Shown: positions 4,961-64,000, counted from the stretch's first letter. The stretch: DNA of 64,000 nt from Eledone cirrhosa (GCA_964016885.1 OZ024757.1:2604001-2668000); one strand, 5' to 3'. Made by a program: numbers and translations. Notes: generated from the letters alone by a model not told the origin.

Positions 4961-5178
4961 GAAAAGAGTCAGGAGCCCGACGGCTGAGCTCCGGCCGTCT
5001 CCACGGTTAGATCCGAACTAAAGTTAGATCCGAACTTTAGTTCGGATCTAGTTGTTGAAACGGCCGGAGCTCAGCCGTCGGGTTCTGAATCTTTTCATAT
5101 TACCCACTCCACTACCCTAAATATCAAGTACTCTGGTGCGTTATGGTCCTCCTGGTTCTTACCACACCCTCTTTGTTT
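4961..5178 (+). mobile_element. TA-flanked fold-back element, family A (3' half of an HHR)
   Basis: Inverted repeat 4961-5096; GAAACGGC..GCCGTC at 5057-5079. Relatives at 9461, 15088, 44272, 49332 and 58068. Confidence 0.7.
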
Positions 5179-5408
5179 ATATATAAATATATGTATATAA
5201 GTATGTATACGTACATACATATATGTATACAGAAGTACAGTAGTATGTATATATATATACATACATGCACATATATATATATATATGTTCGTATGGGTTT
5301 ACCGAACATTTATTATAATGCTCGGTTTGTTTGTAAACAAACATCCCGAATTAAGCCGTACAGTGTTTAGCAATCATCGTTGCCCTTTTGTTCAACACTG
5401 ACAAAGGA

Positions 5409-5451
5409 ACGCTGTACTAGTTTCAAGCTTATTAGCTATCGTCAGCATCGT
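5409..5451 (-). ncRNA. Type I hammerhead ribozyme, family F2
   Basis: Reverse complement: acgatg CTGACGA t agct aata agct t GAAA ctag TA cagcgt. Confidence 0.75.
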
Positions 5452-5913
5452 ATACCTTCCTGCCAGATGATTGAACGTCTGAAAGTATATACTTTCCTTA
5501 TGCATATTAACGGCTGAGCAACCTAATTTGCAACGATAAACGGAAAAAATGAAACGAAATTTCATTTCTCACTCTTAGTACGGCTGTTACTTAAATATAA
5601 GTATGTATACGTACATACATATATACAATGTAAATACATGAGGTTTTAATTAATTTTAATTTAATTTATTAACTTTTAATTTTTAATTAATTTATTTATT
5701 AACTTTTAATTTTTAATTAATTTATTTATTAACTTTTAATTAATTTATTAACTTTTAATTTTTAATTGTAATTATTGTACAATTATCTGGAATTCTACGT
5801 TGCATCCATTCCACTCTGTAAATACGAAACTGTTGTTCACAGCATTAATATCTATGTATCTCTATGATTGTTCAGTTGAATAGGAGGTTAATTATATGTA
5901 CAAACATTGCTAC

Positions 5914-5960
5914 TGCTCCGATGAATCCAAACGAAAGTTTGGAAGAAACAATTGTCAGCA
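5914..5960 (+). ncRNA. Type I hammerhead ribozyme, family F3 (CCGAUGA core variant)
   Basis: tgct CCGATGA a tccaaac gaaa gtttgga a GAAA caattg TC agca. Confidence 0.7.
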
Positions 5961-7157
5961 TTAAAATGATTTGAACATAGCTTTGATTATTGGGGGAGAT
6001 GACCCCTTATCCTTTGTCAAGGCAGAATTATAGGAGAAGGGAAACTCTGATATAACACCTGCAACCCTGATGGTATCCGATGATGTTGACTTGTTCTTCT
6101 TTTTGGTAAATATCATCTTGGTTAAGAGAGTGGGACTGACTTTGTGCAGTGCCTTTGCTCACTATAAAAGCTTCACGGCACAGGCATTGCTTTATATCTG
6201 GAGATCTCTCTGCACTTGTCATCACATGGTACCATGGGCCCAGCACTATGTGTCAATAATTGTCACAAGTGTAGTGTTTGTACCAGAGTTTTCAAGTCGC
6301 TGGCTGGACTAAAACGTCACACTTGTTCAGCACATCGGTAGGGGTTCTCCTACATGGATATAAAGTAGTGGCCGTACTCGAAAACGAGTTGGCAGCCACC
6401 ATATATATATATATATATATATAAATTATAAATTACACAATAATCAAAGCTATGTTCAAATTATTTTATTTATAAATTTTATAGCCTGAAATATTATACC
6501 TTTAGATTAATTCATTATTCTGAAATAACATAAATGATTCGAAATTTAACGATCAGCCGGATACGTTTGGATTTATATAGTGTATATAATTAATTGTTAG
6601 TATATTTCTAATTGACTAAGGACTCGAAATTAAATCCTCATATAATTACACCCAGATACATTTAATATATAGATTCATGGATACTTCTAGATAATTCAAA
6701 GATTCGAGTTTACTCTTTCACAAAGCTATGCTCAAATGTATATTCATATTTATATAGATATATATATTTGCATCATCTAATCACACCCTATTCATCACGA
6801 CAATACAAATCTCCCTCCTTATGCTTTATACTATAAACATTTTTCCTCCTTGTCTCTCTATCTCTGATCACTTCTCTTTTGCTTTCTATACTTCTAGTAA
6901 CTATATTTTTCCTCATTTATTTCTCTCTGTCTTTCTTCTTCTTTCTTCAATAATTTAAATTATTTGAATCTCTAACAGTTATGTAAATTCCTATTACGTA
7001 TTTTTAAGCTTTTTCACACGCACCCTCTGTATTAAATGTAAATGTTTTCATGTCTCAATCTTAAGGTATATAAATATTGAGTTTTGTCATATCTTATTCA
7101 CTACCATGACTGAATCTTAACCATCTACTAAGTCAGGGTATGTCATGCATCATCTTG

Positions 7158-7220
7158 TTTTATCTGATGAGGACGTAAAGTTGAAGATAGCTCAGTACCT
7201 CTGAAATATGTATAATAAAA
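7158..7220 (+). ncRNA. Minimal type I hammerhead, family F4, at the end of an AT/CT-rich PLE-3'-like segment
   Basis: ttttat CTGATGA ggac..gtacctct GAAA tatgta TA ataaaa; stem II imperfect. Confidence 0.65.
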
Positions 7221-7752
7221 TATACTTGATCACACGAATGTTTATTTTTGTTAATATTTTGAATTTATATATATATATATATATATATATATATATATAT
7301 ATATATATATAGGTGTATATATATATATATATATATATATATATATATATATATATATATATATATATATATATATATATATATATATGTAAATATGTAT
7401 ATATATATATATATATATATATATATATATATATATATATATATATATATATATATATATATATATATAGTGAAAGAGTGAAGAATAACATAGTCGGCTG
7501 TACAAAAAGGTTGTTATTTATAATATCAACAATCGTTTCATTGATCAGGTGCGTCTAAAGGCCGCTGATCACGCGAAATTGCGTCACTCGACCTTAAATA
7601 CAGTGTGTGTCTCTGATAAAATCATTGGAACACACACAGAGACACATATATATATATTTAGAGAGAGTGAGAGAGGGAGTGGCTTGCCTGATGCTTACCT
7701 TAGGATGAAACATTTCTAGTCCTGTGGAAGCTATCCCTATATTAAAATCTAA

Positions 7753-61405: not shown

Positions 61406-61580
61406 TGGTTTCTGATTTAGACACAAGGCCAGACATTTTGGAAGAAGGGAAAATCGATTAAACCGACCCCAGTGCGTTACTGGTACTTTATTTTATCGAA
61501 CCCGTAAGGATGAAAAGCAAAGCTAACCTCGACGGGATGAGGTTAACTTTGTTTTTCATCTTTATGGGGTCGATAAAATA
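61405..61580 (-). mobile_element. SINE fragment with short inverted piece
   Basis: SINE core on minus to about 61537, then a plus-strand core piece. Confidence 0.65.
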
Positions 61581-62331
61581 ATAATAATAATGGTTTCTTT
61601 ATTAACCACAAGGGTTTACATTAAGAGGACAATAAATACGGTACAGGACGGTACAGTGCAGGATTTTGTGTGAAAGAAAGGTTTATAACAAAGACTAAAC
61701 AATAATCATTTAAAATTTCCCCAAAAGGACACGCGTGAGGGTCACCCGTGATACCTCCGAGGGTCACCTGTGATACCTCCGAGGGTCACTCGTTGAGAAA
61801 GTCACGGATACCATGACCGCTAAGGCAAGTGCCCTCTCTCGGGTGTCCTCCTACAATTTATATAAACACACATACACACGCATATATATGCACGCATATA
61901 TAAACAAACACGCACACACATACGCACACACATGCACGCACATATAAATACACACACACACAAACATATATGCGTATATATATATATATATAGTTTTAGG
62001 AAACCACGTGTCTGATCAGCTATTGATTCGTTAGTCAGGCCTGATCGATATGGATCAGACCTTGAACTGATCAATCACGAAACGCGCGTAAAACCTGAAT
62101 AAACTTAATGATATGTTGACACTTCGTTTTTACTCATTATATATATATATATATATATATATATATATATATATATATATATATATATATATATATATAT
62201 ATATATATATATATATATATATATAGAGAGAGAGAGAGAGAGAGAGAGAGAGAAGACTGGAAGGTAATTACCCACAACTCGGTCCAAGGGACGAGTTAGG
62301 TAGAAGTGGTAACACAACAGTTAGTTCACCA

Positions 62332-62373
62332 TACCAAGAACAATTGTTTCACCTTACGGATCTTCAGCCCATA
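62332..62373 (-). ncRNA. Minimal hammerhead, family F13, in fold-back 62303-62478 (mirror at 62407-62449 plus, GAAA changed to GAGA)
   Basis: Reverse complement: tatggg CTGAAGA t cc gtaa gg t GAAA caattg TT cttggta. Confidence 0.62.
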
Positions 62374-63290
62374 CTGGTCATGGGTATACGGTATAATCAT
62401 GACCAGTACGAGCTGAAGATCCGCTAAGGTGAGACAATTGTTTTCGGTATGGTGAACTAACTGTTGTGTTACTACTTATATATATATATATATAAGAAAG
62501 ACGCGTTCCGAGTTGTCCGACAGACAACCTTTTCCCCCACCCCGGAAAAAACCCCAGTTGATGGATGTGAATCCGAAATATATAGGGACTATTAAATCTC
62601 TCCCAAGGTAACTCTCTCTCTCTTGTGTTGTTATTATTATTTTTATTCTTTTACTCTTCCCTTCATTCTACACATCTCACGCATCTCAACGTACACCCAC
62701 TTACATATCTCTCTCTCCACCACCGGACCTTGTTACCCGGAGATTTACCCATTTGCATTGTCGAGGCTTCCAAACGACTTATAAATATATATATATATAT
62801 ATATATATAGTAATAATAATAAATTTGATAATAATAATAAATAGATATATATATATATGGAAAGAGTGAAGAATAACATGGTCAACAGTACAAAAAGGGT
62901 TTTATTTACAGTATTAACAATTGTTTGATTGGTTAAGTTGTTTTAAAATTGCTAATCACTTGAAGATGTGTCACTCAATTTTAAATACGATGTATGCTTA
63001 ACCAAATCATCGGAAATTTTAAGACAAATTAATCAATGAAACAATTGTTAATACTGTAAATAAAACCCTTTTTGTACTGTTGACCATGTTATTCTTCAGT
63101 CTTTCACTATTATTACTCCAAGATTAACTTACATAGGAACTCCCGAGAACTCACAAACTCGCTACCTAAGGAAAGGACTTGTTGAGTCAAACAACGCCGT
63201 ACGCTAAAACTATCCACAATACGGTGTATTCACAACTTCTAACTGGATTACCTATAACGATAACTTGTTATCCCTTATATATATATATAT

Positions 63291-63436
63291 ATTATTTCTG
63301 AAGACGGCATATATATGAGTTGGTATGTATATTTGATTTTGATAGTTTGTATAATTTTGTATAATTTTGTACATAGATCTGTTAAATATACATGCCAATT
63401 CTAATATATATATCCCAGAAACGATCGTTAAATAAT
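63291..63436 (+). ncRNA. Type I hammerhead with a ~110-nt stem II, family F14
   Basis: attattt CTGAAGA cgg..gagttggtatgtatatttga..ttaaatatacatgccaattc..cca GAAA cgatcg TT aaataat. Confidence 0.75.
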
Positions 63437-63732
63437 GAACTTTTTTTGTTTAATATAAGGAACTGTTTCATTGTTTTATTCATTATTTTTTTAATATTTT
63501 ATATATATATATATATATATATATATATATATATATATATGTAATCTGAGTTTTTCGAATATTAATAACATTCGATTCGTTTGCAATTATGCAAACAAGC
63601 CTCAATTTTATAGCCATGCTAATATACAGATCTGACTGATCAGCCAGTCTGCTAATATGCAAATCAGGCCGATCAGTCACTGTGTACTTTTGAAAATAGC
63701 ATATATTTTCACTAGCTCTGAGAGTTTGGCAG

Positions 63733-63798
63733 GCGAACAGTGAGCTGTACTGATGAAGGGTGATACCCAGAAATATTAGTATCTGCAGTTCTGTTCGC
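63733..63798 (+). ncRNA. Type I hammerhead with long stem I, family F15, between inverted arms 63540-63618 and 63840-63922
   Basis: gcgaacagtgagctgta CTGATGA a gggt gat accc a GAAA tattagta TC tgcagttctgttcgc. Confidence 0.82.
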
Positions 63799-64000
63799 AT
63801 GCCAACACAAGAGCAAGAATGAAGGATTCATTCTACTGACATGGCTATAAAATTGAGGCTTGTTTGCATGATTGCAAACGAATCGAATGTTGTTATTAAT
63901 ATTCGAAGAGCTCAGATTACATTTATTGTATTCAGTCATGTAGAGCGAACATCTTCTTTATATATAAATAAATATATATATATATATATATATATATATA

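What the first reader, a model, noticed from the sequence alone, without database searches (positions are those of the whole stretch)
4961..63922. A zoo of about 16 distinct hammerhead families sitting as short modules inside (TA)n microsatellites
Seen: most non-SINE, non-LINE islands between TA tracts contain a type I HHR with different stem sequences. Examples are at 5409, 5914, 7158, 7906, 10046, 13126, 14610, 15461, 18505, 28354, 45525, 47179, 48259, 55330, 62332, 63291 and 63733, giving about 30 motifs outside the array. Most families recur 2-5 times within 64 kb. One family (F6) is the 3' end of a GIY-YIG Penelope element. Established: PLE pseudo-LTRs carry minimal type I HHRs, and PLE machinery is proposed to mobilise non-autonomous HHR repeats. 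Inference: a largely unannotated system of TA-targeted, ribozyme-bearing non-autonomous retroelements makes up much of this genome's apparent unique DNA.
Basis: partly seen in the sequence, partly recalled or inferred. Interest (0 to 1): 0.9.

Follow-up and report, generated by a model that had tools for sequence, protein, structure and literature searches.

The report
Penelope retroelement ends carrying hammerhead ribozymes
The short islands between TA repeats carry real hammerhead-ribozyme motifs, but most are cut-short ends of many Penelope-type jumping genes and four families are non-coding tandem repeats likely copied by the same enzymes: a known kind of element, unusually dense here, whose self-cutting is predicted but untested.

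Summary
Observation confirmed: all 17 listed positions are type I hammerhead (HHR) motifs; 37 copies lie outside the array, 19 pass a strict descriptor against 0.05-0.13 in shuffles, and stems covary. Interpretation only partly right. Four (429, 481, 633, 1297 bp units) are ORF-less head-to-tail repeats of the non-LTR retrozyme kind; two are unresolved. Copies are 5'-truncated, end at one of two fixed 3' positions next to TA, and often form fold-back pairs. They cover 40% of the window's non-simple DNA but only 5-8% in a random 1 Mb of the genome, which still implies about 250,000 intact-looking HHRs. Additions: 88 of 94 two-armed insertions pair one tailed with one untailed arm, and two retrozymes share a tail motif with the Hydra-type PLEs. 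Cleavage and expression are untested. The scan noted related retrozymes and two-armed insertions on other DNA of this genome. New members of known kinds.

The parts
4957..5177 (.). F0 fold-back module: two arms of a PLE 3' end, each holding only the 3' half of a type I HHR (U3-A8 core variant in longer copies); right arm carries the tail. Further F0 copies at 9470-9593, 15089-15289, 44278-44371, 49334-49462, 58069-58228
   Evidence: longer copies overlap the 3' UTR of the PLE ORF in L101; link indirect
5287..5605 (-). F1 copy (HHR core at 5445); non-autonomous tandem family, unit about 429 bp. Other copies: 12705-13482 (13132 +), 43406-44108 (fold-back, 43562 -, 43814 +), 48612-49136 (48770 -)
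5853..5990 (+). F2 copy (HHR 5918, CCGAUGA core); pseudo-LTR of a PLE. Second copy 24163-24400 (-)
   Evidence: L084: F2 HHR, tail, then PLE ORF start 300 nt downstream
6467..7265 (+). F3: 5'-truncated PLE 3' UTR with HHR at 7164, ending in TA. Subfamily copies 12428-12589 (+) and 19588-19860 (-)
   Evidence: L069: RT + GIY-YIG ORF, 2 kb UTR, same HHR; about 700 nt upstream shared with this copy
7753..8244 (+). F4 dispersed copy (HHR 7912), retrozyme-type family
9661..10240 (.). F5 two-armed insertion: HHRs 9765 (-) and 10054 (+), left arm untailed, right arm tailed
   Evidence: PLE ORF 1.7 kb upstream of a 91% identical HHR in L124
14552..14980 (-). F7 copy (HHR 14680, stem I broken here, intact in L405); source element unresolved
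15336..17436 (-). F6: 5'-truncated Hydra-type PLE: linker and GIY-YIG end of ORF (about 17436-16698), 1.2 kb 3' UTR, HHR at 15523, tail, TA. Short copy at 46213-46370 (+)
   Evidence: 760-aa open frame of the same family in L041
18301..18571 (+). F8 copy (HHR 18510, CAGAAGA core). Others: 19204-19412, 21184-21393, 27591-27870
   Evidence: L226 and L232: GIY-YIG ORF end about 0.9 kb upstream, 1.2 kb shared
28137..28628 (+). F9 unit-length copy (HHR 28362) between two TA tracts; retrozyme-type family, 481 bp unit
28669..42901 (-). F4 head-to-tail array, 22 units of 633-634 bp (mean identity 99.5%), one HHR each; 3' end at the family's fixed end next to TA
45007..45644 (.). F10 two-armed insertion (HHRs 45201 -, 45530 +); non-autonomous family, unit about 1297 bp
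47050..47312 (.). F11 copies (47185 +, 47308 -); also 56282-56487. PLE 3' end
   Evidence: L122 (ORF end, microsatellite-rich UTR, related HHR) and L307 (inverted ORF piece of the same type); link indirect
47946..48510 (.). F12 two-armed insertion (48134 -, 48263 +); 3' end of a Neptune-type PLE. Others 55518-55858 and HHR-less short arms at 23883-24083 and 46637-47007
   Evidence: L190, L199: GIY-YIG ORF ends about 0.2-0.3 kb upstream
55262..55430 (+). F13 copy (HHR 55335); PLE 3' end
   Evidence: L337, L336: GIY-YIG ORF end 1.1-1.3 kb upstream
62277..62476 (.). F14 two-armed insertion (62367 -, 62413 +); PLE 3' end
   Evidence: L089: ORF end 193 nt upstream of an 88% identical HHR
62860..63115 (.). 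F17 two-armed insertion (decayed HHR at 63013 -); related copy 7470-7640; unresolved
63293..63466 (+). F15 copy (HHR 63298, long stem II); pseudo-LTR of a Hydra-type PLE; tail piece at 58514-58603
   Evidence: L080: HHR, tail, 5' UTR, full ORF; L137: ORF end 759 nt upstream of a 74% identical HHR
63541..63958 (.). F16 two-armed insertion (HHR 63750 +); source element unresolved

Best explanation
The modules are the 3' ends of at least eleven protein-coding Penelope-like element families plus four non-coding tandem repeats, likely inserted into (TA)n by PLE target-primed reverse transcription, each carrying a type I hammerhead predicted to self-cleave. Shown: motif reality, core conservation and stem covariation; ORF linkage; variable 5' ends, two fixed 3' ends and TA adjacency; one tailed plus one untailed arm in fold-backs; head-to-tail units without an ORF in F1, F4, F9, F10. 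Inferred steps: (1) the GIY-YIG endonuclease, guided by its CxCX5C linker, cuts a TA tract (association stated in PMC8557442); (2) reverse transcription starts inside the RNA at one of two sites that bracket the 35-105 nt tail, as shown in vitro for an anole PLE (PMC11167929); (3) it usually stops after 0.1-1 kb, so the HHR-bearing end is what accumulates; (4) both cut strands are primed, one at each start site, and the two cDNAs join head to head, giving the fold-backs; (5) the template spans the cleavage site, so it is uncleaved or re-ligated RNA; (6) F1, F4, F9, F10 RNAs borrow this machinery, F4 and F10 probably from Hydra-type PLEs through a shared tail hairpin; (7) each insertion leaves TA on both sides, so insertions pile up.
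For: Motifs: 19 strict hits vs <=0.125 shuffled; 86 vs 1-5 per random Mb. Selection: recurrent variants 0 in 140 core columns vs 100 in 437 other columns; in stems 10 compensatory, 30 pair-keeping, 18 pair-breaking (14 families); F3/F5/F6 alignment of 45 of 59 available sequences: 95.8% of cells paired, 70 two-sided changes, 0 of 500 shuffles as high, slid controls 36-55%. ORF linkage. Hydra motifs (RW[I/R], DKT, CxCX5C, CxxC..E..N..CxH) read in translations match PMC8557442 section 11; its supplement lists Hydra-1_Obim, (TA)n, with HHR. Ends: bimodal distance to TA per family; 348 of 416 classified ends followed by TA; F9 27 of 29 ends at two positions, all 27 into TA. Arms: 88 tailed+untailed, 4 both tailed, 2 both untailed, 10 unclassified (p 9e-20 against 50%). 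Tail motif [A/G]CTC..GAG[T/C] in 8 of 11 Hydra-type tails, in the F3 subfamily and F17 tails, and in F4 and F10; strict form ACTC..GAGTRC in 0.3% of background windows. Tandem spacing. No excess of 5' ends at the cleavage site.
Against: No cleavage or RNA data. Pfam gives no family for the 760-aa ORF, so RT and GIY-YIG identity rests on visible motifs and on unnamed homologues. No tree with published Hydra references was made; the RWK motif reads RWI or RWR, and F6 and F3 exceed the 'generally <3 kb' size. ORF links for F0 and F11 are indirect, and for F2, F5, F14, F15 rest on one or two loci, some of a sister subfamily (74-91% at the HHR). F7, F16, F17 are unplaced. The tail motif is absent from F1, F9, F12, F16 and missed by the pattern in F11, F15 and X140; tails were picked and the motif defined after looking, so the background figure is not a blind test. 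Most ORFs seen are broken; present activity is unknown. Targeted loci were chosen by HHR-containing queries, which biases the truncation counts, and a few loci are near-duplicates.
Confidence: 0.85

Rival explanations
1. One reading: the families are mainly short non-autonomous HHR retroelements that form much of the genome's unique DNA.
For: Most copies are short and ORF-less; F1, F4, F9, F10 are non-autonomous; 40% of the window's non-simple DNA. Short circular derivatives of the ORF-linked families are not excluded.
Against: 10 of 16 families reach a PLE ORF; their copies show graded 5' truncation and no repeated unit spacing (no recurring same-strand spacing in F3, F8, F11, F12, F13 loci); genome sample coverage 3.9-6.6% of all bases, of which the tandem families 0.4-0.7%.
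Confidence: 0.08
2. Same elements, different template: HHR cleavage and ligation to an RNA circle is an obligatory step, and all copies, PLE ends included, are copied from circles.
For: Copies cross the cleavage site intact (578 of 679 arms, biased set); more-than-unit and multi-unit insertions (F9 window copy, F4 array); one F4 copy begins exactly at the predicted cleavage site (L277); circles are shown for mussel, coral and axolotl retrozymes (PMC7229834, passages).
Against: Uncleaved tandem transcripts explain the same DNA; HHR mutants did not impair insertion in vitro and no reads ended at the site in the anole PLE (PMC11167929). No RNA data here.
Confidence: 0.35
3. The TA tracts are not targets but are made or expanded after insertion from AT-rich element ends or by slippage of the RT.
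For: Element ends are AT-rich and often merge into TA; no empty sites were examined.
Against: In 5' pseudo-LTRs and tandem units the same end continues into element sequence without TA (L042, L080, L084, L140, L401); insertions also sit in (CA)n or mixed microsatellites (F7); (TA)n preference is reported for the clade.
Confidence: 0.12
4. The motifs are chance matches in AT-rich repeats.
For: 8 of 14 motifs do not fold much better than shuffles on their own; Rfam finds none.
Against: More than 100-fold excess over shuffles, invariant cores and covarying stems, fixed place at PLE 3' ends.
Confidence: 0.01

Closest known systems
Hydra clade of C-terminal EN+ Penelope-like elements, including Hydra-1_Obim from Octopus bimaculoides (Craig et al. 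2021, PMC8557442; passages, section 11, supplement part 2 of 59 read)
   Same: RT followed by GIY-YIG EN, DKT, CxCX5C linker, CxxC and CxH around E and N, (TA)n insertion, canonical type I HHR near the 3' end with palindromic helix III, 5' truncation, inverted 5'-adjacent copy, tail at one end only.
   Different: About ten diverged families in one genome against one listed octopus family; 3' UTRs up to 2 kb, some microsatellite-rich; tails of mostly 55-105 nt against 30-40 bp; U4C, U4A and U3-A8 core variants; placement by tree not tested.
Minimal and atypical HHRs of metazoan PLE pseudo-LTRs (Cervera and de la Pena 2014, PMC4209133; parts 1-2 of 4 read)
   Same: Many consensus families per genome, mostly single dispersed motifs from truncated PLEs, opposite-strand pairs 100-700 bp apart, unpaired base before stem II, U3-A8 variant, predicted dimer function.
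   Different: Here most motifs keep a short palindromic helix III; estimated count about 250,000 against 2,000-9,000 in the genomes of that paper.
Metazoan non-LTR retrozymes (Cervera and de la Pena 2020, PMC7229834, passages read; Li, Clavereau, Pollet 2026, bioRxiv 10.64898/2026.07.22.740005, parts 1-2 of 5 read, supplements not seen)
   Same: F1, F4, F9, F10: ORF-less head-to-tail units, one type I HHR each, GC 34-39%, monomers to long arrays, PLEs proposed as mobilisers. A coral genome is reported with >6000 HHRs in 16 families.
   Different: F10 (1297 bp) exceeds the 51-972 bp range read; two fixed ends, TA targeting, fold-back arms and a tail motif shared with PLEs give a direct insertion-signature link not seen in the parts read; circular RNA not shown here.
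Neptune-type PLE (CX2-5CxxC linker, CCHH) for F12; Poseidon from Anolis (Frangieh et al. 2024, PMC11167929; parts 1-2 of 4 read) as the mechanistic model
   Same: F12 ORF has a CX4CxxC linker and GIY-YIG with C..C..H..H. Two internal RT start sites bracketing the tail, both strands cut and extended.
   Different: Neptune versus Nematis not resolved; the anole element is another clade and its mechanism is transferred by inference.

Membership tests
Type I hammerhead ribozyme | Core CUGANGA, GAAA, NUH in type I order with helices I-III | tested here: met
   19 strict copies outside the array; variants U4C (F2), U4A (F8), U3-A8 (F0)
Type I hammerhead ribozyme | Core conserved and stems covarying among homologues | tested here: met
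   helix I varies on one side only, two-sided changes are mostly in helix II
Type I hammerhead ribozyme | Site-specific self-cleavage | not testable with these tools
   needs in vitro transcription; monomer and dimer constructs
EN+ PLE (F0, F2, F3, F5, F6, F8, F11-F15) | RT plus GIY-YIG ORF continuous with the HHR-bearing end | tested here: met
   direct for F3, F5, F6, F8, F12, F13, F14, F15; 5' pseudo-LTR before ORF for F2, F15; indirect for F0, F11. No Pfam hit for the ORF
EN+ PLE (F0, F2, F3, F5, F6, F8, F11-F15) | Pseudo-LTR, 5' truncation, inverted 5'-adjacent copy, tail at one end | tested here: met
Hydra clade | DKT in place of DKG | tested here: met
   F6, F15, F2, and L140, L090 N-termini; not visible for families with C-terminal pieces only
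Hydra clade | CxCX5C linker; CxxC and CxH flanking conserved E and N | tested here: met
   linker in F0, F3, F5, F6, F8, F13, F14, F15; not readable in F11 (frameshifts) or F2 (N-terminus only); flanking motifs present with small departures in F8, F13
Hydra clade | RWK motif | tested here: inconclusive
   reads RWI (F6) or RWR (F15, F2, L140)
Hydra clade | (TA)n insertion and canonical HHR | tested here: met
Hydra clade | Monophyly with published Hydra RTs | not tested
   no labelled reference proteins were loaded
Non-LTR retrozyme (F1, F4, F9, F10) | Head-to-tail units each with a type I HHR, at least two consecutive | tested here: met
   F1 422-442 bp in 6 of 29 loci, F4 625-634 bp, F9 481 bp in 6 of 16 loci, F10 1297-1299 bp in 3 of 28 loci
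Non-LTR retrozyme (F1, F4, F9, F10) | No protein coding, low GC | tested here: met
   longest stop-free stretch 51-108 aa, GC 34-39%; PLE pieces in those loci are neighbours
Non-LTR retrozyme (F1, F4, F9, F10) | Expressed as small linear and circular RNA | not testable with these tools
   no RNA holder listed for F9
Naiad or Chlamys PLE | N-terminal endonuclease, no canonical HHR | tested here: not met
   EN is C-terminal and HHRs are canonical in the families studied

The most novel reading that the evidence does not exclude
This genome holds the densest hammerhead complement among the papers read (about 250,000 intact-looking motifs, 60-114 per Mb, 29 or more families), produced by a radiation of Hydra-type PLEs, and its copies record the insertion mechanism: both strands of a TA target are primed in one event at the two different RT start sites (88 of 94 two-armed insertions), and a tail hairpin shared by Hydra PLEs and the retrozymes F4 and F10 is the cis signal by which retrozymes hijack PLE protein.
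Probability: 0.4. Interest if true: 0.6.

Novelty: new member of a known kind. Interest (0 to 1): 0.36.

Why it matters
It shows that much apparently unique DNA between microsatellites in this genome's repeat-rich regions is short PLE debris that ORF-based annotation misses, and it supplies a large natural library of hammerhead variants (U4C, U4A, U3-A8, long helix II). The two-arm rule and the shared tail motif make two open points directly testable: how PLEs form tandem/inverted insertions with a microsatellite bias (named as unresolved in PMC8557442) and whether PLE proteins mobilise retrozymes in trans (proposed in PMC7229834). The kind of system itself is published.

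Tried and rejected
Rfam at gathering thresholds: 0 matches. Pfam: no family for the GIY-YIG fragment or the 760-aa ORF. First descriptors missed motifs with an unpaired base before stem II; replaced. First coverage estimate was inflated by a SINE inside the F6 library sequence; redone. An apparent pile of 5' ends at the F10 cleavage site (16 of 52) is a SINE inserted 5 nt downstream, not a cleavage footprint; the F1 and part of the output were mis-anchored or cut and are not used. 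Top F11 extensions were overlapping loci or a false pair and were dropped. An F3-like HHR just upstream of the F6 ORF in L041/L044 is a neighbour across a TA tract, not its pseudo-LTR. PLE pieces near F1, F4, F9, F10 copies are neighbours. F7: only 4 of 40 scored genomic places could be read; no link to an ORF. F16: 24 loci, no ORF link. F17: no genome search. Expression: no RNA holder listed for F9; two runs of unrecorded kind, contigs only, were uninformative. No polarised A-to-G difference in 17 window fold-backs. A recalled paper on PLE HHR variants cleaving as dimers (Lunse et al. 2017, recalled) is not held. Paper searches found no genome-wide HHR census for a cephalopod; the Octopus vulgaris repeat annotation (PMC13282606, passages) has 0 occurrences of 'ribozyme' but lists Penelope families. 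Subscription journals, Dfam and Repbase were not searchable.

Full report
Setting. The window is C18:2604001-2668000 of a 2,996 Mb assembly. It is 35% GC and rich in microsatellites; (TA)6+ tracts make 6.0% of it against 3.5% in a random sample. A cephalopod host is an inference from recall and from earlier scan notes; I did not test it. Family labels F0-F17 are mine.

Observation. A type I descriptor allowing an unpaired base before helix II gives 19 hits outside the 28.67-42.90 kb array and 19 inside; local dinucleotide shuffles give means of 0.05 and 0.125, the reversed sequence 0. Homology extends this to 37 copies of 17 families outside the array and 22 in it. Rfam finds nothing at its thresholds, and only 6 of 14 motifs fold clearly better than shuffles as monomers, which fits short palindromic helix III motifs thought to act as dimers (PMC4209133). 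Among homologues gathered by BLAST for 14 families, no core column of 140 carries a variant seen three or more times, against 100 such variants in 437 loop and flank columns; stems show 10 compensatory, 30 pair-keeping and 18 pair-breaking recurrent changes (U4 and N7 were not counted as core). An alignment of 45 F3/F5/F6-type motifs (43 of 57 BLAST hits, leaving out partner arms and a few others, plus two window copies) has 95.8% paired cells and 70 two-sided changes, 0 of 500 shuffles as high; pairs with a two-sided change 8 against 5.6 (23 of 500); slid controls pair 36-55%. Relatedness inflates such counts, and I drew the structure by hand on the alignment.

Genome scale. In 100 random 10-kb loci (drawn with rough contig lengths, so middle-sized contigs are under-sampled) the descriptor finds 86 motifs against 1-5 in three shuffles, in 29 families together with the window's. 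Bootstrap 60-114 per Mb gives about 250,000 (180,000-340,000). The window, at 19 in 50 kb, is about four times denser. A library of these elements covers 13,864 of 34,333 non-simple bases in the non-array window (40%; 8,349 ORF-linked, 4,030 tandem, 1,533 unresolved) but 6.6% of the sample (7.9% of non-simple bases), or 3.9% (4.6%) without the 11 loci that fed the library; 34 of 100 loci have none. These are lower bounds.

What the modules are. The window's 15.3-17.4 kb element (F6) is a 5'-truncated PLE; a 760-aa open frame of the family lies in L041. Searching with it and an HMM of 39 homologues showed other PLE ORFs, 31-62% identical in aligned pieces, that run into the window's other families: L069 into F3 (about 700 nt upstream shared with the window copy), L124 into F5, L089 into F14, L137 into an F15 relative. 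F2 (L084) and F15 (L080) also stand as 5' pseudo-LTRs directly before an ORF, as F6 does in L042. Targeted searches added F8 (L226, L232), F12 (L190, L199) and F13 (L337, L336); F11 and F0 are linked indirectly. Translations show DKT, RWI/RWR, CxCX5C and CxxC..E..N..CxH, the marks of the Hydra clade, described with canonical HHRs and (TA)n insertion and listed for Octopus bimaculoides. F12 has a Neptune-type linker. F1, F4, F9 and F10 instead recur head to tail at about 429, 633, 481 and 1297 bp with no ORF: non-LTR retrozymes as defined in PMC7229834 and the 2026 preprint. F7, F16 and F17 remain unplaced.

Insertion anatomy. Copies have variable 5' ends and two fixed 3' ends. In the random sample 78 of 88 copies have (TA)4+ within 300 nt downstream (background 18%; upstream 48 of 88); 348 of 416 classified ends are followed by TA. 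In ten families, two-armed insertions pair a tailed with an untailed arm in 88 cases, against 4 and 2 of like kind and 10 unclassified, while single arms split 99 tailed to 119 untailed. PMC8557442 notes that the tail is often at one end only; PMC11167929 shows two internal RT start sites bracketing the tail, both strands cut and extended, and HHR cleavage dispensable in vitro. I infer that both strands of a cut TA tract are primed, one at each site. Arms cross the cleavage site with no excess of 5' ends there, so the template was uncleaved or circular; the DNA cannot tell which. Tails of most Hydra-type families and of F4 and F10 share an ACUC..GAGU(R)C motif able to pair; F1, F9, F12, F16 lack it (motif chosen after inspection). 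The tandem families show the same fixed ends and TA adjacency (F9 27 of 29 ends; F4 mostly +337), which supports mobilisation by PLE proteins.

Verdict. What is added is scale, the count of coexisting families, core variants, the two-arm rule and the shared tail motif. I found no cephalopod HHR census in the searches made, but Dfam, Repbase, subscription papers and the preprint's supplements were not seen. Earlier notes of this scan describe related retrozymes and two-armed insertions elsewhere in this genome; they are leads, not support. Cleavage, expression and present activity are untested.

Noticed in passing
window 8713-8912, 17428-17648, 18099-18325, 22266-22466, 23509-23709, 59557-59714, 60058-60289, 60546-60743, 61465-61581: An abundant SINE-like repeat of about 185 bp (in 60 of 100 random loci) flanked by AAT/ATT runs; in about 14 F10 loci it sits at the same site 5 nt downstream of the HHR cleavage site.
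   Followed up: partly
window 24780-27200 and 2660-4290: LINE-like fragments: one with RT and PHD Pfam hits, one GC-rich broken ORF without Pfam hit.
   Followed up: no
window 27284-27494, 42902-43223, 58691-58989, 47321-47485, 63131-63292: Further TA-flanked repeats, two of them fold-backs, with GAAA-containing stems but no classic type I core seen; candidates for more PLE ends or for the rearranged hammerheads noted in earlier scan findings.
   Followed up: no
L402 (G000:C2:53111850-53117860): A 6-kb stretch built almost wholly of nested PLE ends (F7 twice, F12, F1, F8 twice, another HHR family and a Neptune-type ORF piece) separated by TA tracts.
   Followed up: partly
L277:1109 (G000:C1:49407629-49410839): An F4 copy begins exactly at its predicted cleavage site, inside the microsatellite-rich UTR of an F11-type PLE; a single case.
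   Followed up: partly
window 18510, 21326 (F8); 5918, 24358 (F2); F0 in L241, L192, L354: Family-fixed core variants CAGAAGA, CCGANGA and UUGANAA; activity unknown.
   Followed up: partly
L122, L100, L080, L337, L226: Several PLE 3' UTRs contain long (TG/TA) microsatellite-like stretches, so these elements may spread their own targets.
   Followed up: no
window 49876-53029: Two adjoining inverted (CAC)n and (GGT)n-type degenerate arrays of 1.7 and 1.4 kb.
   Followed up: no
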